This document shows positions 8,357 to 59,962 of a stretch of DNA of 64,000 bases, piece by piece. Origin of the DNA: Eledone cirrhosa (Eukaryota); the NCBI GenBank assembly GCA_964016885.1, contig OZ024740.1, forward strand, positions 359,042,001-359,106,000, written 5' to 3'. Below the pieces are notes generated by a model. The model was not told the origin of the DNA. It did no database searches and worked only from the letters and a program-made list of their open reading frames with translations. The translations under genes were made by a program, and so were the position numbers. Each line of letters opens with the position of its first letter. The stretch's first letter is position 1.

Positions 8357-8503
8357 CATTACTGGTACATTATTTTATCGACCCCGTAAGGATGAAAGGC
8401 AAAGTTAACCTCGGCGGGATTTGAACTCAGATCATAAAGGGAGGTAACACTATGCTTCAAAGCATGGCGTCCGACCCTCTATCGATACTGTCAATCCACC
8501 GCC
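8357..8503 (-). mobile_element. tRNA-derived SINE, 3'-truncated at a (TA)n tract
   Basis: Minus strand ggcggtggattgacagtatcg...gagttcaaatcccgccgagg...ggggtcgataaaata. Confidence 0.9.
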
Positions 8504-8554
8504 ATTGCCAGAAATAATAATAATAATATATATACATATATATATTATATATAT

Positions 8555-10456
8555 ATGTATATATATATATATAATATAACGAGCGAAGTAACCCTTAAGC
8601 ACATCAATGATGAGGCATGCGAAATAGTGAAAAATCTCGGAATCGAAGATAGGACAGGACCACTCTTACCGGCGGTACCCACCTTCAATCTTAAGGACCA
8701 CAAGGTAAACTTTGATAATGACCCTAAAATAAGATTAATCTGCCCCTCTAAATCAGATATAGGTAAAATAAGCAAATATATCTTAGATAGAATCATCCCC
8801 CAAATTAAGGCTAAGGTTAACATTAAACTCTGGGGGAAGACCCAAGAAGCAATAAGATGGTTTAATAGCATTAGCAATAAGAATAAATCTAAGTTTATCC
8901 AGTTTGATATCGATGAATATTACTCATCGATATCACCTGAAACTTTGAATAGAGCCATTAAGTTTGCTAAGGATAACTCTGACCTTACAAACGATGAAAT
9001 TAAGATTATATTAGAAGCTAGGAAAACTATAGTCAAATTTGAGAACAGTTATTGGGTACGTAAAGATAGACCCTCTAACTTTGACATAACAATGGGCTCT
9101 AACGATTCGGCGGAAATAACTGATATTGTGGGGTTATTTATCGCCTTTAGACTCCAGGAAAAATTCAGCAATCTCCACGGCGGAATATACCGCGACGATG
9201 TTCTCCTCCTAGCTAAAAACCTTAATAACCAAAAACTAGAAAAACTACGCAAAGATATAAGAAAACTACTACTCGAAATAGGACTAACTATAACATATGA
9301 ATACAACCTTAAAGTAGTTAACTTCCTGGATGTCACACTCAATTTAAACTCTGGTTTGATTAAACCGTTTCATAAATTGAATGAAAATCTCAAATACGTA
9401 AATGTTGGGTCTAACCACCCCATCTCTATAATTAAATCTATCCCTAAAAATATTTCCCTTAGAATCTCGGGTCTATCTTCTAACATACAAGTATTTAAGG
9501 AACACGCCGAGTACTACGATAACGCCCTTAGTAAAGCAGGCTACCTCAACAAAACAGAGTACATAGATGGGAACAATCAAAACACCCAAAATAAATCCCA
9601 CATAGGTAGATATAATAACACAACACCAAACCACACTTACTACCATAGTATGCACACCAGTAAACCAACAAACAAAACTAATAGAAAGCGATGCAAGGAG
9701 TACTTATGGTATAACCCCGAATACAATAGCTCCATTAGTACAAATTTACCAGTACTCTTCTTTAAAATAATTAAAAGACATTTTCCCACATCACACAAAT
9801 ACCACAAAATCCTAAACCCTACCACTATAAGACTGTCATACTCTACAGCGTTAAACCTTGAACAACACATAAAAAAGATCAATACTAGAAGGTTAAACGA
9901 AAACACTAAGAACTTAAGTACAAAGAACCCCCCAAAAACAGTAGACAATACACTACAGAACATAAATAAACCACACCTAAGTTCGTCCGCAATACTACTC
10001 CAGAGAAAACCCAACGTACACAACTGTAACTGCACCTATCCTGACAACTGCCCCCTCGGCAATAACTGCCTGGAAAAAAATATTATTTATAAGTGTACCA
10101 TTAAATCCGGAGGCAACGAGTGGTATTACGTGGGATCAACGGCAACATCGTTTAAATCTCGATTGTATAGGCATTCTTACTCAATAAAACACCAGAGCCA
10201 AAGAAATGTAACAACTTTAGCAGAAAAAGCTTGGACGCTCAGGGATAGCAATCAAAAGTTTACCCTAAAATGGGAAAAATTAGCTAAAACCCAAAGCTTT
10301 TCCAGGAGCCAAAATTTCTGCAAATTGTGTAATCTTGAGATTTATTACATAATCACACACAAGAAGAAACTGCTGAATAACAGAATTGAACGAACATTAT
10401 TCTGCCGTCACAGAACTAAAACCCTTTTTTCCCACTACAAGCCGAATATTACATAA
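8555..10456 (+). CDS. Penelope-like element protein (RT plus C-terminal GIY-YIG endonuclease), 5'-truncated, Naiad-like
   Basis: Uninterrupted 633-codon frame with FDIDEYYSSI, FDITMGSNDSAE, GIYRDD, NFLDVTLNL, linker WYNP..HFP..IRLSYS, CNC..CPL...C, IIY..YYVGST, FKSR, CKLCNLE, CRHR. The Met comes from the microsatellite; real coding sequence starts at ~8573. Confidence 0.93.
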   Translation: MYIYIYNITSEVTLKHINDEACEIVKNLGIEDRTGPLLPAVPTFNLKDHKVNFDNDPKIRLICPSKSDIGKISKYILDRIIPQIKAKVNIKLWGKTQEAIRWFNSISNKNKSKFIQFDIDEYYSSISPETLNRAIKFAKDNSDLTNDEIKIILEARKTIVKFENSYWVRKDRPSNFDITMGSNDSAEITDIVGLFIAFRLQEKFSNLHGGIYRDDVLLLAKNLNNQKLEKLRKDIRKLLLEIGLTITYEYNLKVVNFLDVTLNLNSGLIKPFHKLNENLKYVNVGSNHPISIIKSIPKNISLRISGLSSNIQVFKEHAEYYDNALSKAGYLNKTEYIDGNNQNTQNKSHIGRYNNTTPNHTYYHSMHTSKPTNKTNRKRCKEYLWYNPEYNSSISTNLPVLFFKIIKRHFPTSHKYHKILNPTTIRLSYSTALNLEQHIKKINTRRLNENTKNLSTKNPPKTVDNTLQNINKPHLSSSAILLQRKPNVHNCNCTYPDNCPLGNNCLEKNIIYKCTIKSGGNEWYYVGSTATSFKSRLYRHSYSIKHQSQRNVTTLAEKAWTLRDSNQKFTLKWEKLAKTQSFSRSQNFCKLCNLEIYYIITHKKKLLNNRIERTLFCRHRTKTLFSHYKPNIT

Positions 10457-10627
10457 AAGAGGGACATCCCCCAACTATATAAACCTTAATCTAGTTAGAA
10501 AAATATAAAAACAATCTCTTCTCAACATATATTAATAACCTTAAATTACCATACTAATAATGAAAAGATATGCTGATGAGAATAGGTACAAATATGCGAT
10601 AATGAATGTGTCTAAAAACGTCCATAA

Positions 10628-11150
<523 letters not shown>

Positions 11151-11444
11151 TGCGTGGGTGAAAGAATACGTACACTTGAAAGAAAAATTTAAGTCTGAAT
11201 GTTAAGTGCAAACACAAAACCAACCACGCATATCTTTACTATCTCTAATCCTTCTATAGATTTAGAAAAATAACCAATAATATATTCCATAAAAAATGTC
11301 AAAACAACAGATGGGAATCTAATTACTCACTGCCACCAAGAATTCTCACTGCTATCGAAAAACCACTCCTTCAACTATTCTTCTAACAACTTCACCCCTC
11401 CCTCCTAATATTCTCTATAAAAACTAAATAGGTCCTCAGTAATA

Positions 11445-11561
11445 TTATTCTGATGAAATGACAGTAAATAATAACATTGAAATATTGAATGTCTGCATAA
11501 CTAAAAGTTTGTAGATAGCTGTTTTAGGTTATGTAACTGTTATAGAAACACGTGTCAATAA
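11445..11561 (+). ncRNA. Type I hammerhead ribozyme (minimal stem III, long stem II insert)
   Basis: uuauu-CUGAUGA-a-augacagu...acuguuau-a-GAAAC-ACGU-GUC^aauaa; stem I uuauu/aauaa; palindromic ACACGUGU; predicted cleavage after 11556. Confidence 0.8.
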
Positions 11562-11711
11562 ATTCCTTTCAACTAAACTGTATCCATTCAAATCTTTCTA
11601 TTTTTCTCCGGATTACTTTTGGAACTACAACTGGAACCGTCGAGCAAACTCTACGTGAGCTGATAATCTACTGTGTGTAATATTTATATTACAACACAAC
11701 GGAAAATACTG

Positions 11712-11760
<49 letters not shown>

Positions 11761-11986
11761 TATATATATAAGTATGTATACGTACATACATATATGTATA
11801 CGGACGTACAGTAGTATGTATATATATATATATATATATACATACATGCACACATATATATATGTACGTATGGATTCACCGAACATTTATTATAATGCTC
11901 GCTGTGTTTGTAAACAAACATCCCGAATTAAGCCGTGCAGTGTCTAGCAACCATCGTTGCTCATTTGTTCAACACTGACAAAGGAA

Positions 11987-12027
11987 CGCTGTACTAGTTT
12001 CAAGCTTATTAGCTATCGTCAGCAACG
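11987..12027 (-). ncRNA. Minimal type I hammerhead ribozyme
   Basis: cguug-CUGACGA-u-agcu-aaua-agcu-u-GAAAC-UA-GUA^cagcg. Confidence 0.85.
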
Positions 12028-12511
12028 TATACATTCATGCCACGTGGTTGAACGTCTGAACGTATATACTTTCCTTATGCATATTAACGGCTGAGCAGCC
12101 TAATTTGCATATCGAGTGAGTTAATCGGCCGTGAGCACCGAAAACGATAAACGGAAAAAATGAACCGAAATTTCATTTCTCACTCTTAGTACGGCTTTTA
12201 CTTAAATATAAGTATGTATACGTACATACATATATGTATACAGACGTACAGTAGTATGTATATATATATACATACATGCACACATATATATCTACGTATG
12301 GACTCAACGAACATTTATTATAATGCTCGGTGTGTTTGTAAACAAACATCGCGTATTAAGCCGTACATTGAAAAGCAACCATCGTTGCCCTTTTGTTCAA
12401 CACTGACAAAGGAACGATGTACTAGATATGCAAATTAGGCTGCTCAGCCGTTAATATGCATAAGGAAAGTATATACTTTCAGACGTTCAACCATCTGGCA
12501 GGAAGGTATAA

Positions 12512-12550
12512 GGTGCTGACGATAGCTAATAAGCTTGAAACTAGTACATC
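12512..12550 (+). ncRNA. Minimal type I hammerhead ribozyme (inverted copy)
   Basis: ggug-CUGACGA-uagcuaauaagcuu-GAAAC-UA-GUA^cauc; stem I differs from the 11987 copy but still pairs. Confidence 0.85.
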
Positions 12551-12987
12551 GTTTCTTTGTCAGTGTTGAACAAAAGGGCAACGGTGGTTGCTAAACACTG
12601 TACGGCTTAATTCGGGAGCATTATAATAAATGTTCGGTGAATCCATACGTACATATATATATGTGTGCATGTATGTATTTATATACATACTACTGTACGT
12701 CTGTATACATATATGTATGTACGTATACATACTTATATTTAAGTAACAGCCGTAATAAGAGTGAGAAATGAAATTTCGTTTCATTTTTTCCGTATATATA
12801 TATATATATATGAGTGAGAAATGGAATTTAGTTTCATTTTTTCCGTTTATATATATATATAAACGGAAAAAAATGAAACCAAATTTCACTTCTCACTCTT
12901 TGTACGGCTGTTACTTAAATATAAGTATGTATACGTACATACATATATGTATACAGACGTACAGTAGTATGTATATATATACATACA

Positions 12988-13045
<58 letters not shown>

Positions 13046-13048
<3 letters not shown>

Positions 13049-13530: not shown

Positions 13531-13671
13531 TATATTTAATAATATACTGTATGTTTTTATTTTAAAACATTTTGAAAGCCACATAACTTTAAAATTCATA
13601 GCGAATGGCCTTCAAAATGTTTTTAATTAAAAACATACAGTATATTATTAAATATACTATACGTACATTCA
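13531..13671. repeat. Small foldback element A (arms ~13531-13581 and 13606-13656)
   Basis: Arms are near reverse complements; most of the unit recurs inverted at 14851-14958. Confidence 0.8.
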
Positions 13672-13677
13672 TATATA

Positions 13678-13771
<94 letters not shown>

Positions 13772-13775
<4 letters not shown>

Positions 13776-14600
13776 TAAACGGAATAGAAAATGCTGACAA
13801 ATTGTTCACAGTTGAAAAATGGCTTAATTAGGAATAAAAGAGTATTAGTGATTGTATGGGTTAGTATTCAGTTGTGGTTTTAAGTTTTTAAGTTTTTACC
13901 GGTTGCGCATTTCTAAATGCTTTTCAAAAATAATTTTGAGATAGAGTGTCCGAGCTGTTTGCTCTGATCTGATTAGTTTTGGGAATTCTACCTGTTTTTA
14001 TGTTAAAAAAGTGGCTCCAATTTGCAAAAATTCTTGTGGTCAAAACAATTTTGATTGGTCGGTAGAGGTCATGTGAATGTAAAAAATTGATTTTGCGCCA
14101 AGACTGTTTTTATGTTAAAAAAGTGGCTCCAGCAAAAATTCTTGTGGTCAAAACAATTTTGATTGGTCGGTAGAGGTCATGTGAATAAAAAGAATTTTTG
14201 CTGGAGCCACTTTTTTAACATAAAAACAGTCTTGGCGCAAAATCAATTTTTTACATTCACGTGACCTCTACCGACCAATCAAAATTGTTTTGACCACAAG
14301 AATTTTTGCAAATTGGAGCCACTTTTTTAACATAAAAACAGGTAGAATTCCCAAAACTAATCAGATCAGAGCAAACAGCACGGACACTCTATCTCAAAAT
14401 TATTTTTGAAAAGCATTTAGAAATGCGCAACCGGTAAAAACTTAAAAACTTAAAACCACAACTGAATACTAACCCATACAATCACTAATACTCTTTTATT
14501 CCTAATTAAACCATTTTTCAACTGTGAACAATTTGTCAGCATTTTCTATTCCGTTTACCAATATATAATAACTTGTGTGTTACACCTCTATTCTTTTAAC
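13772..14600. mobile_element. Foldback element B: 372-bp inverted arms plus ~39-nt tail, in (TA)n
   Basis: 13772-14143 is the reverse complement of 14190-14561 (three mismatches noticed); internal ~85-bp direct repeat; tail 14562-14600. Confidence 0.88.
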
Positions 14601-14622
14601 TATATATATATATATATATATA

Positions 14623-14815
14623 CGTTGAATCGGAGGTAACCACAGTAAGTAATGTACTCAATACATAGCAGAGTATAAAAGTTTTAATATAGATGAGATT
14701 CTACAGGACTAGAACCGTTTCATTCTTTAGAAATCATCACTTTTGGAAAGCCAGATTCCTGATGATTTCTAAAGAATGAAACAGTTCTAGTCCTGTAGAA
14801 TCTCATCTATATTAA

Positions 14816-14819
<4 letters not shown>
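14623..14819. mobile_element. Foldback element C: 60-bp arms, 20-nt spacer, ~57-nt tail, HHR-bearing
   Basis: 14680-14739 versus 14760-14819 inverted; (TA)n on both sides. Confidence 0.88.
14753..14803 (+). ncRNA. Type I hammerhead ribozyme
   Basis: agauuc-CUGAUGA-uuucuaaagaau-GAAACAG-uucuaguc-CUGUA^gaaucu; 6-bp stem I, 4-bp stem III; the other arm has G.U in place of A-U in stem III. Confidence 0.8.
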
Positions 14820-14854
<35 letters not shown>

Positions 14855-14959
14855 TGTACGTATAGTATATTTAATAATATACTGTATGTTTTTAATTAAA
14901 AACATTTTGAAGGCCATTCACTATGAATTTTAAAGTTATGTGGCTTTCAAAATGTTTTT

Positions 14960-15052
14960 GAATGGTGTTTTGTTGTATTCTTTATCTCTTAAATGGTGTT
15001 TTGTTTTATTCTTTATTTTTTAAATGGTGTTTCACTGTATTCTTTATTTTTT
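14960..15052. repeat. ~31-bp tandem repeat, three copies
   Basis: aatggtgttttgttgtattctttat... three times. Confidence 0.8.
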
Positions 15053-41793: not shown

Positions 41794-44627
41794 ATGGCCG
41801 TACTCAGAATAGGCAGTATAAATGTACGTGGCCTGGGTCATCTTGGAAGTTAGGGCACCTGCTCAATGACCTCAGGTCACTAAACATAGATGTGGTGGCC
41901 ACCAGAATCTTCGAAGCACGAGCCTTCGCACCGATCTTCGGCGGCTACAATGTATACGCATCTCCCAGCCGACGAGGATCGGGGGGAGGGTTGCCGTGCT
42001 TCTTTGGAGAGGCTGGGAACTTGCCATACGATCCATCTTCCTGGACCCAGAAGGTAAGTCGGTGGTGCTGGACGTGCCCGGCAACAAAGGCAATGCTTTC
42101 AGGCTAGTAGCCGTCTACGCCCCAACAAGGGCAGGACGGCCAGATTTCTTCAGACGTCTAGATACTTTCTTGGAACGTCCCGCTCTTTAGTGTTAGTGGG
42201 CGACTGGAACGGTATCTTAGATGCACGCTGGGATTATGTGGGGATAGTAGACATGGCAGGAGGGTGTAAAAGCCTCAACAACCTGCTCAGACGTTTTGAA
42301 CTGTCTGACAGGAATAGACTGGATTATCCGTATGTGCCAATGTGGACATGGGCAAACCGCATCGGGTCATCCAGATCGTATTTAGATAGGGTATTCTGTA
42401 GGGAAACAGATAAGGCTAGTGAAGGTTGTCCACAATTTAAAGTAGTCGACTACACGGACCACAAATTTGTGATCTGTGAAGTTGACTTAGATAGACCCCA
42501 TATGCAAGGGCCCGGCTACTGGAAACTGAATACGTCGTTCTCGGCGCGCAATGTTTACAGAGAACGGATTAGCGAATTAGTTAAGAGTGCGTTGACGGTT
42601 GCGATCATCAACAACAGGTGGTGGTTTACCCTGAAAAACGTTATTAGGGTAGAATCGATAAGGTTTAGCAAAGGAATAGTGATAGAGGAGAATAGAGTAA
42701 AGGGAGAGTTAGTTAGAAAGCTAGAAGAGGCGTTTAGGACAGGCATCGCAACCGCCGTGCTTGCGGCGAGATTGGCACTCGACCAATTCTTCAACGCAAA
42801 GCAGAAGGCTACGTTGTCAGAGCTAGAGCGCGTGCTCTAAGACACGAGGGGACGAAATTCGTTAAATGGACCTAGGTGGTGGAGGCGCGACGTGGCAACA
42901 AGTCCACAATTCGGTCTTTGTCTGATCAAAACGAAGGGCGCATGTTGCACGAACCCGAGCAGATGTGTGCGGCTTTTCAACAGCACTTTGCTCAATTGTT
43001 CGGGAGCGGCGGCGGCCGGATCGGAGTATGGACTTCGGTGCATACCTCGACGGACTGCCGCGGCTCACTAAGACCGCAGAGCAATGCTGCGAAAAGCCGA
43101 TAACAGCAGGTGAAATACTGGAAGCATTGTCTGGCAGCACGAGGGGTAAATAGCCAGGTGGGGATGGCCTGCCCTACGATCTTTATGCGTATATGCCAGA
43201 CTTGTTCGGCGACCTTTTGGCAGATGTCTACTGCAACTGGCAGCAGAACGGGAGCATTCCCAGTTTCGTGAGCCGGGGAGCGGTGGCGCTGCTGAGAAAA
43301 GACCCGAACAAGGGGGACGTTATAGACAACTTCAGGCCCATAACTATGCTAAACGCAAAGTTTAAGATTTTGGCCAAGGTGTGAGCAAAGAGATTGGCGC
43401 TTGTCGTCGGTGATCTGGTGGGAGAGGCGCAGACATGCGTCATTTCGGACAGATCCATCCACGACAACCTCCATCTCATGCGATACATCCTAGAGAGGGT
43501 GGTTAAAGAACCTGGCACGAGTGGGGCCCTGATAAAGCATTTGATAGGGTCGACCATTGGTACCTGGCTGCGGTCCTCGAGGCGGCCGGCTTCGGGCCCG
43601 TTTTTAGGGGCTGGATCGCTGCGATGCACAGCGACATCTGCTCGATTGTGAGCGTGAATGGTCACCTGTCGCAGCCTTTCAGCATCATGCGCTCGGCCCG
43701 CCAGGGTTTCCCCCTCTCGTCCTTCTTGTACGTACTGGCCCTAGAGCCGTTACTGCACAAATTGGAGACGATGAAGGGGGCCCCACGCGAACTGGGATGC
43801 GGGAGATCCATGTCAGCTTACGCAGACGACGTCACCCTGGTGGTGTCGAGCACCAAACACGTCCAGATGCTCAGTACCGCTCTCAATGAATACGAAGCGG
43901 TGACAGGAGCAAATATAAGCCGGAAAAGTCGGTGGGCTTGCAACTAGGCACCTGGAGCGGCCAGTCCATGCCGTCCGACTGCATCGTGGGGCACGGGACA
44001 GAAGGACCGGTTAAATTGCTAGAGTTCTGGTTCGGTCCGGACCTCCAGGGCGTCGAAGACAATCAGCTGTTCGCTCTTTTCAAGAGAACTTTCAGATCGG
44101 GGCCTATGGACAACTTCCAAAAATTCCTGGCCTGGCAGTGTTACCGGGGAGCGTTGCCGGTTCGGTATAAGCTCTACAGGCACGGAGGTGCTGTCAGCCG
44201 AGCCTGTCCGAGATGCGCGCAGGGCGACCAAACCGTCCTGCACGCACTCGTTCAGTGCCCGAGGATTGCTGACTTGTGGAGCTATGTCGAACAGCTGTGG
44301 TCGCATTTAGGGCGGATCCAGTTATCGACTGAGTCCATTGTGCAGATAGCCCCGCCATCCTCCTTTAAAGAGGAGGATGGGCAGGCAGTTTTCATCTGCC
44401 TGGTGGCCATGACGAAAGAGATTTTGTGGTGGACAAGATTGAAAGGGTTGAAGACGGACACTTTCCTCTCCGGCCAATCCTTCTTGATTAACTTTTTCAA
44501 GTTTCACTTGAAGAAGAAAATCAGGGTGGAGAGGCAAGTGCTGTCTTCTAGTAAGTTTGTTGAAAGGTGAGTGAACGTGGCGAGTCTGGTCCGAGTGAAC
44601 GGGCCTGCTCTGAGTATACGCCTGTAG
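41794..44627 (+). pseudogene. Tx1-like ORF2 (APE plus RT plus C-terminal zinc motif)
   Basis: MAVLRIGSINVRGL, VYAP, VGDWN, YLDR, TDHK, GYWKLN, NFRPITMLN, RQG.PLS, AYADDV, CPRC..TVLHALVQC. Confidence 0.9.
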
Positions 44628-44894
44628 ACTGAGGATTGGGAAAAGTGAGAGAGGGCGCTTGCCCTGGTGGTCAGCGTGGCCGTGGTCTTTTGTATGGTTT
44701 TTACCACGCGTTACCCTCGGAGGATTCCCCCTTCTTGGGAAATTTTTGTTGTTTGAAGTTTTGGGGGATTTCTAGCCCGATTTTGTTATAACCTGTTTAC
44801 ACGACCAAAACCCACTTTGTATCGTCCTGTACTGTTCTGTGCCGTCTCTAATGTTTTTCTTTGTGTCAGCACTTGTGGCCAATAAAGAAACGAT

Positions 44895-47800
44895 TAATAT
44901 TCTTTGAGTCTCAGTTATTGATGTTATTTAACTGGAAAGTTTGTTGAAATGAATATCAGACTGCTACCTGCAGCCTCAGATATTCAGGACTTATCGGAGG
45001 GTTCTTGCTGTTCCCAGCAAGCATGCCCTTTGAAGTGTTCCAAAAAGCGGGGCTGGACTAATTTTCTTTACCCATCCTTGGAAACTCTTTGAGATAGTAC
45101 CTAGTGCGCCTATGACAATCGGGACCACTTTGACTTCATGGCAGTTACAAATCCTTTTTACCTCCCACTTTAAGTCCTGGTATCGGTTAATTTTCTCCCT
45201 CTCCTTTTCTTGCACTCCCGTGTCAAATGGGCAGGCTACATCTACAATCAGGCACGATCTTTTTTCCTTGTCCCAAACCGCCAGTTCAGGCCTATTATGT
45301 TCCAGTTTCTTGTCCGTCTGTATCCTGAAATTCCATAGCACTTTCACCTGATCGTTTTCTATCACCGACTCTAGCTTATGCTCATACCACTTCTCAGAAT
45401 GTGGTAAATTGTTTACTTTGCATAGGTGCCAGTGGATCAATCTGCCCATCATATCATGTCTCCAGCCTTTATAGTTAGTCTGTGCTAGGTGTTTACACTC
45501 GGATACAATGTGAGCCACAGTCTCCTCCCTCTCTCCACAGATCCTACACAGTGGGCTAGCCTTGTAAATATGCTCCTTGTAAATATGGTGTTTCACCCAC
45601 TTCGTTCTGAGGGTCTGCTCTTGCGCAGCCATTAGCATTCCTTCTGTAGCCTTTTTAAGGTCTCCTCTTGTTAACCAGTTCCATGTCTGTGGATCTCTAA
45701 ATTCAGTTTTCTCAAAGAAGGTACTATTAAGAGATTTTTCATAAAGGTTGCTCTTCCTCCTGGCTGTTGTTTGCTCCTTGGACATCCCCTGGTTTATTGT
45801 CCTCTCCTTCAGTACAATTCTGAGCATTGGCTCCCTACTGTCAGTCACGTATTTGTGTACGTTGTTTTTCTCCATCTGAACACAGTCCTCTATGCTAATA
45901 AGACCGCTTCCACCTTCAGATCTCTTTAAGTAGAGTCTATCGACATCACTCCTCTTGTGGAACATGTTGTAGATAGTCAATAGCTTCCTAGTCTTCCTAT
46001 CCATTTCTTTTTGTTCAGCAACATTCCATTTCAGAATTCCCGCACTGTACCTAATAATAGACAGAGCTCGGGAATTCACTGCACTTGTGGCATTCCTACT
46101 GTTCAGATGTGACTTTAATATGCTCCTTACTCTCCTAATGTACTCAGATCTTATCAATTCCTTCATTTTTTTGTTCTTGATGTCATCTGCCTGCAGAACA
46201 CCTAAATATTTGTATCCTTCTTCAGTGTCAATTTACTTTATCATCTCACCTGTTGGTACCTGGATTCCGTTGCTTCTGATCAATTTACCCCACTTCATCA
46301 CGAGGACTTCACAGTTATTAATACCAAATTTCATACATATATCATTGCTGAAAATACGGAGTGTCAACAAGTACATCCAACTACTTCTCACTCTTCCCAA
46401 AGAGTTTAACATCGTCCATGAAGAGGAGGTGATTGATTGATAGTAAGCTCTCCTTTTCGAAACTGGTATCCTGCTCTCACTTTTCGCAGTATAATGGTCA
46501 GGGGTATCAGTGCAAGGACAAACAACAGAGGGGACAAACTATCTCCCTGGAAGATACCTCTCTTTATCTTCACGCCTCCGAAGGATTCTCCACCCGATGT
46601 TAACTCTGTTTCCAAGGACTTCATGCTCAACAACTGCCTGATGTTATCTGCCACCTTGAAGATCTTTAGGCTTTTGGTTATCCAAGAATGAGGTACCATG
46701 TCGAATGCCTTTTTGTAATCTATCCATCCCATGGCAAGACCAGTGTGTCTCCTCTTGCAATTCCTCATTACCATCTTATCAATAAGTAAATGGTCTTTTG
46801 TACCACGGGACTTCTTTTGGCATACTTTCTGTTCGTCCGGTAACAAGTTGTTTATGTGGATGTGATGGTAGATTTCCTCAGACACAATGCTTGTTAACAG
46901 TTTCCACATTACAGACAGACATGTGATAGGTCTATAGTTGGTAACTCTTGATTCGGTCTTTCATTACCAGAACTGTGGTACCTTTTATCAACCACTCTGG
47001 TACCTCATCCGACATCAAGCAGTCATTGAACATGTTTGTCAGTTTGTCAGAGGGAGGTTATAATTTTGATCCAATCCCCCTGCACACCATCTGGGCCTGG
47101 TGATTTCCAGTTGGTTAGCATTTTGGCCTGCCCTTTAAGAGTTTCAACTGTGATACTCAAATCAGTTTGTTGGTGAGCTTGTTCACTAATCTCCTTTTGT
47201 ACTGTCTCAATCCACACTGCTTGATCATTATGTTCAACATCCTGCTCCCATATTCCTCTCCAGAATGTTTTAGTTTGTTCCGCGTCAGGGATCAATTCGT
47301 TGCCTCTTTCTTCCCCTTCAAGCTGTCCAAACAGCATCTTCTGGTTGTTGTCAAACATGCGGTTCTGTTTATACTCTGCTCTCATACCGCCTAATCTTTA
47401 CACTCTTTGCTACAGTGCGTTGCTTCAGTTCCCCTATGATGATATTTAGCCTCGTCCTCCGAGTTTTGTACTTTATTTCCAGTCTATTTTTAGTGTCTAT
47501 GTTTTGTAGTGTCCCATTCAGTAGGGACTCAAGCTTTCCAATGACATTTCTCATTTCCTTGATTTGACCATCAGTCGTTTCTTTCACCAAGGTTCTGATC
47601 TTTCTTGTTTGTTGTTTCCTCTCGTTTTTATGCCAAGTAATTTCCTCACCGCATTTGCTGTTGCTTTGGGGATATTGTTGCATTGGTGAAGGTTCCTCGC
47701 CTCAAGGTATGGGATGACTTTGTTAACCTTAGCTGTTGTTTCTTTTAACTTTTTCCTGTCTACAAATCTTAGGTTCATAGGTTTCCCACTATCATTTTTC

Positions 47801-55079: not shown

Positions 55080-55736
55080 CTACCCCCCCCCCGGGTCATT
55101 ATGGGGTTTGAGGGCGAGGTAAGTCCTACGCAATCTATGTTTACATGCAGTGACCAGTTCATCTTTCTTGTTTAGGAGTTGGTCCGTCGAAAACAGCATT
55201 TGTAAAGTTTCCTCCGAGCATAAATTGCACGGACGGCGTCCTCCCGTGTAAGAATTGGCTCTGGACAGTAATCTCCAAGTGAGATCATAGGTGATGTTGT
55301 TGTCCTTGAGGTCCCATATGTGGCCCGAAAGTGTAGTGGCGTGACGCCGGGCCGGGTTTCGGAAGGTATGTCTATGTTGGTATAGCCGGGTCTTGAAGTC
55401 ACATGCGGTAAGTCCTATATAGGCTTTGTTGGAGGTATCCGTCCTCACGTTGCACTGGTAGATCACATTACGGTCTCTGCATCTATTGTCGAGTGGGCAA
55501 ATAGATCTATCCGGGCAGTTACACCTCCTGGTCGGTTCTCCATTGCTATTTAGGTTATTTCTGCCATCGGGGTTGAGTTTATTGTTGTTAGAGGAGACGA
55601 TGTTTTGTGCGAAGTTTGGTGTAGTGCTGTAAGAGAGTTTGATGGTATTTTTGTTAATTATGTTGTGGTAGCGGTGTTGTAATGGGAAGTGTTTTTCAAT
55701 GAGCCTAAAGAATAGTTTCCCGATGGGAGTTGTCAC
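55080..55736 (-). CDS. Penelope-like element C-terminus: linker plus GIY-YIG endonuclease (truncated)
   Basis: IGKLFF.LIEKHFP, IKLSYSTTPN, CNC..CPLDNRC, VIY..AYIGLT, FKTR, CNLCSEE, CKHR; homologous to the C-terminus of 8555-10456. Confidence 0.92.
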   Translation of the reverse strand: MTTPIGKLFFRLIEKHFPLQHRYHNIINKNTIKLSYSTTPNFAQNIVSSNNNKLNPDGRNNLNSNGEPTRRCNCPDRSICPLDNRCRDRNVIYQCNVRTDTSNKAYIGLTACDFKTRLYQHRHTFRNPARRHATTLSGHIWDLKDNNITYDLTWRLLSRANSYTGGRRPCNLCSEETLQMLFSTDQLLNKKDELVTACKHRLRRTYLALKPHNDPGGG

Positions 55737-56001
55737 CTCTGCGTTTTTTTTTTTTTCTTTCCTATATATTTCTACCCCCCATTGTTCTACCTACCGTTCC
55801 GACTTCCTCCCCCTCCCCCTCCCCTGTATCTTCTTTGACCTCATGCCCAGCTGTAGCTGGCACTACCAACGCTTGATTGGGTCTATTCCACCCCCTCCCC
55901 TCTTTCTCCTACTGGCAGGTTTAGCCACCATCTCCCCTACTAATTTGCAACCACAGAATTACTACTGATTTTTGACAATCACTTTGACCATATATGGAAT
56001 T

Positions 56002-57576: not shown

Positions 57577-58411
57577 TATTTCGATATCCAATGATTTCAA
57601 TCTCGTTGCTTACAATTTACTCAACAAATTCTTTAGGGCACATGCATGGTATCAATTATATGGCAACATTCCCAGCCAGATGCCTAATCCATGAAAATAT
57701 ATTGTAATTATTGTATCGACAGATTAACAAATGCAAACTTTAAAGTACTTCCAATTTCATCAACTGAAACGGCCAGTATATATATAACTCTGCTAGAATA
57801 CAAATATCCAAGTGTATGCTATACTGTTTTAAATTCTGTGAAGAATTTGCTGATCATTGATTAATAATAAACCTATAATCAACAATTCCTGGATGAAGGA
57901 AAATTCTCATCAAACCAGCAAGTCCTTTGAGGGGTTTCCACATATCGACCTTACTACTAAATGTTCAGGTCGATGCTGGAATCCCACGTGTAGCATTATC
58001 TGCTTGGTGGTAATGCTGAATGTAGCAGCATGACTTCACCAATGTGGAACACTCGACCATCATTTTTCTTTCTTTTTTTCGATTTTATTTGTTTTCTTTG
58101 GAAATTGTCTTTTGTTTTTGTTTGATTTATTTTTATATTTGCTATCCAAGGTGGAAAATAAATAGCGGAGGCATAATGTTACAAGATAACCTTCTAATAA
58201 TATAAGTATGTATACGTACATACATATATGTATACAGACGTACAGTAGTATATATATATATATACATACATGCACACATATATATATGTACGTATGGATT
58301 CACCGAACATTTATTATAATGCTCGCTGTGTTTGTAAACAAACATCCCGAATTAAGCCATACAGTGTCTAGCAACCATCGTTGCTCATTTGTTCAACACT
58401 GACAAAGGAAT

Positions 58412-58450
58412 GCTGTACTAGTTTCAAGCTTATTAGCTATCGTCAGCAAT
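58412..58450 (-). ncRNA. Minimal type I hammerhead ribozyme
   Basis: uug-CUGACGA-uagcuaauaagcuu-GAAAC-UA-GUA^cag. Confidence 0.8.
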
Positions 58451-58839
58451 GTATACCTTCCTGCCAGATGGTTGAACGTCTGAAAGTATAAACTTTCCTT
58501 ATGCATATTAACGGCTGAGCAGCCTAACTTGCATATCGAGTGAGTTAATCGGCCGGGGTACCGAAAACGATAAACGGAAAAAATGAAACGAAATTTCATT
58601 TCTCACTCTTAGTACGGCTGTTACTTAAATATAAGTATGTATACGTACATACATATATGTATACAGACGTACAGTAGTATGTATATATATATATATACAT
58701 GCACACATATATATATGTACGTATGGATTCAACGGACATTTATTATAATGCTCGGTGTGTTTGTAAACAAACATCCCGAATTAAGCCGTACAGTGTCTAG
58801 CAACCATCGTTGCTCATTTGTTCAACACTGACAAAGGAA

Positions 58840-58880
58840 CGCTGTACTAGTTTCAAGCTTATTAGCTATCGTCAGCAACG
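58840..58880 (-). ncRNA. Minimal type I hammerhead ribozyme
   Basis: cguug-CUGACGA-uagcuaauaagcuu-GAAAC-UA-GUA^cagcg. Confidence 0.85.
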
Positions 58881-58961
58881 TATACCTTCCTGCCAGATGG
58901 TTGAACCTCTGAAAGTATAAACTTTCAGATTCACCGAACATTTATTATAATGCTCGGTGTG

Positions 58962-59116
58962 TTTGTACAAACATTCATAGTTTGAACAAACATTCATAGT
59001 TTGAACAAACATTCATAGTTTGTACAAACATTCATACTTTGTACAAACATTCATAGTTTGTACAAACATTCATAGTTTGTACAAACATTCATAGTTTGTA
59101 CAAATATTCATAGTTT
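58962..59116. repeat. 19-bp minisatellite, about eight copies
   Basis: tttgtacaaacattcatag repeated without spacers. Confidence 0.92.
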
Positions 59117-59707: not shown

Positions 59708-59962
59708 TAAAAAATTATTATATAAAATATATATTTTCACTAGCCATGACAGTTGGCAGGTGAACAGTAAACTGTACTGATGAAGGGTAATACCCAGAAA
59801 CATTAGTGTCTGCACTTCTGTTTACATGCCAACACAAGAGCAAGAATGAGGAGCTCATTCTACTGACATGGCTTTAAAATTGAGACTTGTTTACATAATT
59901 GCAAACGAATCGAATATTATTAGTAATATTCGAAAATCTCAGATTACAATTATATATATATA

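What the first reader, a model, noticed from the sequence alone, without database searches (positions are those of the whole stretch)
11768..12990. Same HHR repeat in both polarities, with compensatory stem I changes and an inversion breakpoint at the ribozyme
Seen: HHR on minus (11987-12027, stem I cguug/cagcg) and on plus (12512-12550, stem I ggug/cauc). Both stem I strands differ yet still pair, and the core is identical. Unit 2 stops at ...gatgtactag (12425), inside the ACUAGU palindrome about 6 nt from the predicted cleavage site, then flips orientation. Inference: pairing is under selection, the inversion may reflect RT switching template near a cleaved RNA end, and the locus could self-cleave from either strand.
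Basis: partly seen in the sequence, partly recalled or inferred. Interest (0 to 1): 0.75.

Follow-up and report, generated by a model that had tools for sequence, protein, structure and literature searches.

The report
Back-to-back Penelope-type hammerhead retrozyme insertion
This is one of thousands of back-to-back insertions of a 425-base non-coding repeat with a predicted self-cutting RNA motif, likely pasted into TA repeats by a Penelope-type jumping gene; its junction lies six bases from the predicted cut, but other copies break all along the repeat, so the match is likely chance.

Summary
The sequence observation holds. A type I hammerhead motif sits on both strands, with an identical 31-nt core, and the inversion junction lies 6 nt upstream of a third predicted cut site. 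The interpretation mostly fails. The core has 10,046 exact copies in this genome. Copies share two fixed 3' ends in (TA)n, have variable 5' ends and are often joined head to head: the known Penelope-like (PLE) footprint on a non-LTR retrozyme. Breakpoints show no spike at the cut (8 seen against 6.7 expected within 15 nt; similar densities just before, just after and 35 nt away). An excess of up to about twofold near the cut is not excluded. This junction keeps bases upstream of the cut, so the template was likely uncut there. The compensatory change is one pair (U.G, A-U, G.U) marking three subfamilies. A read-through RNA is predicted to bury both ribozymes in a duplex. Unusual here: the two ribozymes come from different subfamilies, suggesting a mixed template. 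Earlier scan notes describe what appears to be this family, and similar junction claims, on other DNA of this genome.

The parts
11712..11767 (.). (TA)n tract at the 3' end of the left arm; likely target site, shared tail to tail with the neighbouring young Penelope-like element
   Evidence: sequence; family 3' ends lie in TA tracts in 47 of 58 and 79 of 107 arms; the neighbour's copies end here
11768..12425 (-). Left arm, about 1.55 monomers: starts at -6 of unit 2, runs through +275 into unit 1 and ends at the short 3' site (about +218)
11986..12028 (-). Predicted type I hammerhead, U.G subfamily; 6-bp stem I, stem II AGCU/AGCU over a U.U mismatch, 2-bp palindromic stem III; predicted cut 11992/11991
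   Evidence: no Rfam match
12147..12425 (-). Unit 2 (-6 to +275): G.U-type over +1..+46, nearest to U.G-type copies from +53 on; carries only the last 6 nt of a core
12420..12426 (.). Head-to-head junction (-6 of the left arm joined to about -122 of the right arm), 1-nt overlap; unique in the family
12426..12797 (+). Right arm, about -122 to the long 3' site (+275), G.U subfamily, with a 22-nt deletion near 12615
12510..12552 (+). Predicted type I hammerhead, G.U subfamily; C-to-A at 12511 breaks pair 2.5-1.5; predicted cut after 12546
12812..12849 (+). Duplicate of the 3' tail between short TA tracts
   Evidence: (family D10)
12859..13011 (-). Third, short 5'-truncated piece (about +124 to +275), tail to tail with the right arm; probably a separate insertion; runs into a TA tract ending at 13047

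Best explanation
This locus is a head-to-head insertion of a 425-nt non-coding repeat with a predicted type I hammerhead, likely made when a Penelope-type reverse transcriptase/endonuclease cut a TA tract, primed one DNA copy from each side at the repeat's two fixed start sites, and the two unfinished copies were joined where they happened to stop. Shown: copy number, two fixed 3' ends about 55 nt apart, TA flanks, variable 5' ends, head-to-head pairs, breakpoints spread along the monomer, three stem I subfamilies. Inferred: the enzyme, an uncut or re-ligated (multimeric or circular) RNA template that is read through the ribozyme site, end joining, ribozyme activity, and a mixed template to explain the two subfamilies at this locus. 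The two opposed ribozymes are a by-product, not a two-strand device.
For: 10,046 exact cores and 16,453 exact copies of a +90 anchor. Of 203 family arms in the sample, 122 end in a head-to-head junction, 73 plainly, 8 in a tandem join. 3' ends cluster at about +218 and +275 and lie in TA tracts; of 61 pairs 24 use one site each, as this locus does, 15 long/long, 2 short/short, 20 have an unassigned end. This matches the inverted 5'-truncated copy, the one-sided tail and (TA)n targeting in PMC8557442 (passages) and the cutting and extension of both strands with two internal start sites in PMC11167929 (parts 1-2 of 4). Arms of one insertion share a subfamily in 38 of 43 pairs against 22% of random pairs. 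5' ends within 15 nt of the cut: 8 seen, 6.7 expected (n=70) and 5 seen, 4.7 expected (n=69) in two overlapping samples. Genome-wide probes give 0.17, 0.25 and 0.21 inverted junctions per 100 nt just after, just before and about 35 nt before the cut, against 0.18 overall. 8 of 27 junctions just before the cut keep 3 or more template bases that the partner arm does not supply. The genome holds many GIY-YIG frames (150 scored of 10,597 candidates) and a very young PLE-like family with the same two-end, TA-flanked, often opposed layout.
Against: The autonomous partner is not identified: among 44 GIY-YIG loci and the window, matches to the repeat were copies of the repeat or its sister family, TA tracts and one weak tail-like hit. 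Cleavage, transcription and circles were not tested. No Rfam hammerhead match; the isolated motifs do not fold better than shuffles (z 0.81 and -0.17). A cruder estimate gives about twice as many inverted junctions next to the cut as 35 nt upstream (90 and 81 against 42), and head-to-head ends alone show 7 against 4.1 within 15 nt (p=0.13), so a modest ribozyme effect is not excluded. No A-to-G bias that would mark an edited RNA template (109/13,754 against 84/12,247, p=0.35). This locus is one of 5 of 43 pairs with unlike arms.
Confidence: 0.82

Rival explanations
1. One reading: the reverse transcriptase reached the 5' end of a self-cleaved RNA, switched template and produced the inversion.
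For: The junction is 6 nt from the cut. A crude count gives about twofold more inverted junctions within 7 nt of the cut than at -37..-31. 12 of 27 junctions in the -6..+1 probe are compatible with an end at or after +1. Unchecked earlier notes report ends at the cut in some elements of this genome.
Against: This junction retains -6..-1 with only a 1-nt overlap. No step at +1: density before the cut is not lower than after it. Of 81 arm passages at risk at +8, 77 continue past -8. Sampled ends are denser at +60..+90 (19 of 122 head-to-head ends) than at -15..+15 (12 of 122). Chance two-base microhomology is about 1.3 to 1.6 times richer at -6..+1 than at -37..-31.
Confidence: 0.08
2. The locus is a composite of separate events: an older U.G copy and a G.U copy were joined by later insertion into the same TA tract, ectopic recombination or gene conversion, so the two ribozymes never shared one insertion.
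For: The arms carry different subfamilies, unlike 38 of 43 pairs; unit 2 is mosaic with four clustered changes at +47..+52; a third piece and a tail duplicate show that the site was hit more than once.
Against: The pair has the usual one-short, one-long end layout and a flush junction; the junction-proximal 46 nt of the left arm match the right arm's subfamily; alternating two-monomer arrays exist in the family (L115), so a mixed template is plausible.
Confidence: 0.2
3. The locus is a functional element kept to self-cleave from both strands, with pairing selected at this site.
For: Both cores are intact and stem I still pairs at 2.3-1.3.
Against: Both copies carry uncompensated stem I changes; in copies from loci not fetched by the exact-core pattern the core differs from the majority at 3.4% of bases against 2.3-2.5% in flanks; read-through RNA is predicted to trap both motifs in a long duplex; opposed motifs are routine in the family.
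Confidence: 0.04
4. The inversion is an assembly artefact.
For: No listed contig from other runs spans the junction.
Against: Arms differ by 8-15% and by subfamily; about 61 junctions of the same kind with different breakpoints were found in the sampled loci; short-read contigs break in a 10,000-copy repeat and may come from another individual.
Confidence: 0.03

Closest known systems
Metazoan non-LTR retrozymes (PMC7229834: passages and part 3 of 6 read; bioRxiv 10.64898/2026.07.22.740005: part 1 of 5 and passages)
   Same: Non-coding, low-GC tandem monomers with one type I hammerhead each; thousands of copies; weak palindromic stem III; U.U at the base of stem II as in axolotl HHR_Amex2; co-occurrence with PLEs.
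   Different: Monomer of 420-453 nt is a little longer than the 170-400 nt reported; mostly dispersed, 5'-truncated, two-armed insertions with fixed 3' ends, which the passages read do not describe for retrozymes; RNA, circles and cleavage not shown here.
Penelope-like elements, endonuclease-bearing clades (PMC8557442 passages; PMC3846280 passages; PMC11167929 parts 1-2 of 4)
   Same: 5' truncation, partial tandems, an adjacent inverted 5'-truncated copy in head-to-head orientation, a tail at one end between two start sites, (TA)n targets, read-through of the ribozyme (in vitro the uncut RNA was the dominant substrate).
   Different: No ORF; tail about 55 nt rather than 30-40; no sequence link to a coding PLE found.
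Opposed hammerhead pairs in Schistosoma PLEs (PMC4209133, part 1 of 4 read)
   Same: Motif pairs about 100-700 bp apart on opposite strands were already noted; here the cores are about 500 bp apart.
   Different: Those are minimal motifs of coding elements; this is a canonical type I motif with a 6-bp stem I in a non-coding unit.

Membership tests
Type I hammerhead ribozyme | Core CUGANGA, GAAA and UH around three stems, stem I open | tested here: met
   CUGACGA, GAAA, GUA; stems I (6 bp), II (4 bp over U.U), III (2 bp); 94% of cells paired in 34 distinct copies. Core copies in that alignment were mostly chosen by the exact core.
Type I hammerhead ribozyme | Match to a curated hammerhead model | tested here: not met
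   No Rfam hammerhead hit at gathering score or at E up to 5; the U.U at the base of stem II and the short stem III may explain this (inference).
Type I hammerhead ribozyme | Covariation of stems | tested here: inconclusive
   1 of 17 pairs changes on both sides, as a subfamily trait.
Type I hammerhead ribozyme | Self-cleavage | not testable with these tools
   needs in vitro transcription
Non-LTR retrozyme | Short non-coding tandem monomers, one type I hammerhead per unit, low GC | tested here: met
   Monomers of 420-453 nt in runs of 2-7; no ORF of 150 aa or more lies over the finding
Non-LTR retrozyme | High copy number, dispersed | tested here: met
   10,046 exact cores, 16,453 +90 anchors
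Non-LTR retrozyme | Transcribed into monomeric linear and circular RNA | not testable with these tools
   no RNA run was listed; an ABAB array is only a hint of a two-unit template
PLE-mobilised non-autonomous element | Fixed 3' ends with a tail, 5' truncation, head-to-head inverted copy | tested here: met
PLE-mobilised non-autonomous element | Insertion into (TA)n | tested here: met
   47 of 58 and 79 of 107 3' flanks
PLE-mobilised non-autonomous element | Sequence shared with the 3' end or pLTR of a coding PLE | tested here: inconclusive
   no clear match among 44 GIY-YIG loci and the window's PLE-like copy; only a small part of the genome's PLEs was examined

The most novel reading that the evidence does not exclude
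The insertion was copied from one mixed RNA, a dimer or circle joined from monomers of two subfamilies, primed at two different monomers, so that one event fixed two ribozyme variants back to back; and the mild, two-sided excess of junctions within 7 nt of the cut records reverse transcriptase stalling at a re-ligated or folded ribozyme junction rather than falling off a cut end. Both would be genomic evidence for ligated retrozyme RNA as the transposition template.
Probability: 0.2. Interest if true: 0.6.

Novelty: new member of a known kind. Interest (0 to 1): 0.28.

Why it matters
The locus itself is ordinary. Its value is as a negative control and a test bed. With over 10,000 copies the family shows that opposed hammerheads and a breakpoint near the cut arise without any special mechanism, and that the copying enzyme reads through the ribozyme site. 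The large set of two-armed insertions with subfamily marks makes the open question of how Penelope-type inverted structures form testable: one template or two, cut or ligated. One search that asked for all four terms (Penelope-like, head-to-head, hammerhead, junction) listed no paper, and the retrozyme search listed none that tabulates such junctions by title or abstract; subscription journals and supplements were not seen.

Tried and rejected
Rfam: no hammerhead hit, only TA-repeat matches to microRNA models. A first junction pattern was mis-specified and uninformative. Second hit of the junction 17-mer is unrelated sequence. Sequencing runs: no RNA holder listed; contigs and RAD reads gave no listed piece across the junction, which proves nothing either way. 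A-to-G editing bias: none. Subfamily crossovers at the cut site: discordance across -34..+3 (4 of 129) is no higher than in other intervals. A U.U intermediate subfamily: rejected, 21 of 30 are U.G copies with one change and 9 have the other downstream type. Genome-wide counts of the G.G and A.G mismatch states were not obtained; the sample has 0 and 1 of 107. Autonomous partner: not found; Pfam and PDB gave no hit for the neighbouring 672-aa frame, so its PLE label rests on motifs seen by eye. Alignment A1 held one row with wrong coordinates and was not used. Look-up of earlier notes by sequence returned nothing. Rows dropped before counts: 6 overlapping loci and 4 of 111 copies without intact upstream stem; 59 of 262 arms that were short tail pieces or distant look-alikes; 7 near-duplicate hits on one contig subtracted from the 98. 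The control density at -37..-31 uses an anchor fraction (11 of 30) that is biased low, so that density may be overstated.

Full report
What is there. The region 11768-13011 holds three pieces of one repeat between (TA)n tracts. Positions are counted from the predicted cut (+1 is the first base after it). The left arm (minus strand, 12425 to 11768) runs from -6 through one full 428-nt monomer and ends at about +218. The right arm (plus strand, 12426-12797) runs from about -122 to +275 and has a 22-nt deletion. A tail duplicate and a short opposed piece follow. The motif reads as type I: 6-bp stem I plus a 5-bp upper stem, stem II AGCU/AGCU over a U.U mismatch, and a 2-bp palindromic stem III. 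Rfam gives no hammerhead hit and the isolated motifs fold no better than shuffles, so activity is predicted, not shown.

The family. The window lies in a 3.0-Gb animal genome. The core has 10,046 exact copies and a +90 anchor 16,453. A second locus lies in the same window at about 58200-58970. I mapped the copies in 157 fetched loci, several overlapping, and that second locus. Of 203 family arms, 122 end 5' in a head-to-head junction, 73 plainly and 8 in a tandem join. 3' ends cluster at about +218 and +275, and TA tracts follow in 47 of 58 and 79 of 107 arms. Of 61 pairs, 24 use one site each, as here; 15 use the long site twice, 2 the short site twice, 20 have an unassigned end. This is the layout described for Penelope-like elements: 5' truncation, an adjacent inverted truncated copy, a tail on one side, (TA)n targets (PMC8557442, passages; PMC3846280, passages). 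A purified PLE protein cuts and extends both strands, starts at two internal sites bounding the tail, and prefers uncut RNA (PMC11167929, parts 1-2 of 4). Opposed hammerhead pairs 100-700 bp apart were already noted in Schistosoma (PMC4209133, part 1 of 4). The unit itself fits the non-LTR retrozymes (PMC7229834, passages and part 3 of 6; bioRxiv 10.64898/2026.07.22.740005, part 1 of 5 and passages). Supplements were not read and may list related families.

Claim 1, compensatory stem I. In 107 of 111 core-bearing copies with an intact upstream stem, pair 2.3-1.3 is U.G in 58, A-U in 29, G.U in 13, U.U in 3, and C-G, U-A, A.G, A.C once each. It is the only one of 17 pairs with a change on both sides in a 50-row alignment (34 distinct rows). 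Position 1.3 is about as tightly linked to the unpaired site +29, so the pattern is subfamily descent: one double change inherited thousands of times. In favour of selection on the source elements, the three amplified states all pair, U.U has 162 exact copies against 4,601 for U.G, and 21 of 30 sampled U.U copies are U.G copies with one change. The copies at this locus are decaying: each has uncompensated stem I changes.

Claim 2, breakpoint at the cut. In two overlapping samples chosen without regard to the 5' end, ends within 15 nt of the cut number 8 (6.7 expected, n=70) and 5 (4.7 expected, n=69); head-to-head ends alone give 7 against 4.1 (p=0.13). Three genome-wide probes caught junctions in 7-base windows: +1..+7 (174 hits, 15 of the first 30 inverted), -6..+1 (98 hits, 27 of 30) and -37..-31 (90 hits, 14 of 30). 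On a common denominator the densities are 0.17 (0.06-0.40), 0.25 (0.13-0.44) and 0.21 (0.08-0.43) per 100 nt, against 0.18 for the whole monomer. Without that restriction the two windows at the cut hold about twice the control (90 and 81 against 42), part of it from sister families and richer microhomology. So an excess of up to about twofold is open, but there is no step at +1. My count by eye of the list puts about 15 of 82 junctions at +1 and about 50 at -3..-6; it is approximate. 8 of 27 fine-mapped junctions keep three or more upstream template bases that the partner arm does not supply, and 12 of 27 are compatible with an end at or after +1. This locus keeps -6..-1 with a one-base overlap. 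A copy made from a cut RNA could not contain those bases without a further jump. With two arms per insertion and a 14-base window, about 1 insertion in 15 would look like this by chance (arithmetic from a 425-nt monomer).

Claim 3, cleavage from either strand. In a head-to-head pair the antisense arm is transcribed before the ribozyme in both directions. Folding 11768-12800 puts 39 of 43 (plus) and 40 of 43 (minus) motif bases into a long duplex with the other arm, with stem probabilities of 0. Cleavage would need a promoter inside the locus. No RNA data were available.

What is unusual here. The two arms of an insertion share a subfamily in 38 of 43 pairs, against 22% of random pairs, which points to one template per insertion. 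This locus is among the 5 exceptions. The junction-proximal 46 nt of the left arm match G.U copies exactly, the rest is nearest to U.G copies, and the right arm is G.U with some U.G-like downstream sites. One array in the sample alternates two monomers (monomers 2 and 4 identical, 15-16 differences to 1 and 3; L115). A mixed dimer template would explain the locus in one event; a template switch or later recombination would too. I could not separate these.

Surroundings. The left TA tract is shared with a much younger element: a 672-aa frame at 8438-10456 with reverse-transcriptase-like and C-terminal GIY-YIG-like motifs seen by eye (no Pfam or PDB hit). About 130 of 150 scored genomic matches are identical over its last 159 aa, full frames are 785 aa, many are opposed pairs, and copies end at two sites, window 11601 and about 11712, mostly in TA. 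It shows that PLE-type machinery was recently active, but no sequence shared with the repeat was found, so the partner remains unknown.

Earlier notes. The scan has reported what appears to be this family (422-nt monomer, two fixed ends) and several similar ones; some follow-ups found ends at the cut, others judged the match chance. One of these notes prompted the genome-wide probes. I count none of them as support.

Verdict. A real but ordinary copy of an abundant retrozyme family with a Penelope footprint. Observation confirmed; the cut-end and two-strand interpretations are not supported; selection on stem I is plausible but rests on one pair. Interest 0.28.

Noticed in passing
window 8438-11712 (+): 5'-truncated copy of a very young PLE-like family (785-aa full frames, about 130 copies identical over the last 159 aa, opposed pairs, two 3' ends about 110 nt apart in TA). 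A hammerhead-like motif lies in its 3' part at about 11450-11493. Clade not tested; earlier notes speak of Hydra-type elements in this genome.
   Followed up: partly
window 58200-58974 (-): Second locus of the same repeat, U.G subfamily, 95% like unit 1, two cores, with an internal deletion in its 5' part and a short tandem repeat upstream.
   Followed up: partly
window 13559-14963: Nested long inverted repeats (378-nt arms at 99%, 145-nt arms at 97%) with a different hammerhead-like motif at about 14753-14805 that also has U.U at the base of stem II; likely another two-armed insertion.
   Followed up: no
window 59771-59816 (+): Another hammerhead-like motif with an A.A juxtaposition at the base of stem II.
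   Followed up: no
L115 (G000:C1:19311500-19318800): Five-core array whose monomers alternate ABAB (2 and 4 identical), a hint of a two-monomer template; L157 holds near-identical monomers in two opposed arms.
   Followed up: partly
L230:7700-8520 and several of L264-L323: Sister families with the same ribozyme 3' half but altered loop II, upstream stem and +30..+120 region.
   Followed up: no
monomer +60..+90 (about window 12330-12360): The densest cluster of head-to-head 5' ends in the sample (19 of 122) lies at the GTTT-rich near-palindrome, not at the ribozyme.
   Followed up: no
window 55080-55790 (-), 42058-46960: Further retroelement remnants: a 236-aa PLE-like C-terminal frame and LINE-like endonuclease and RT fragments.
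   Followed up: no
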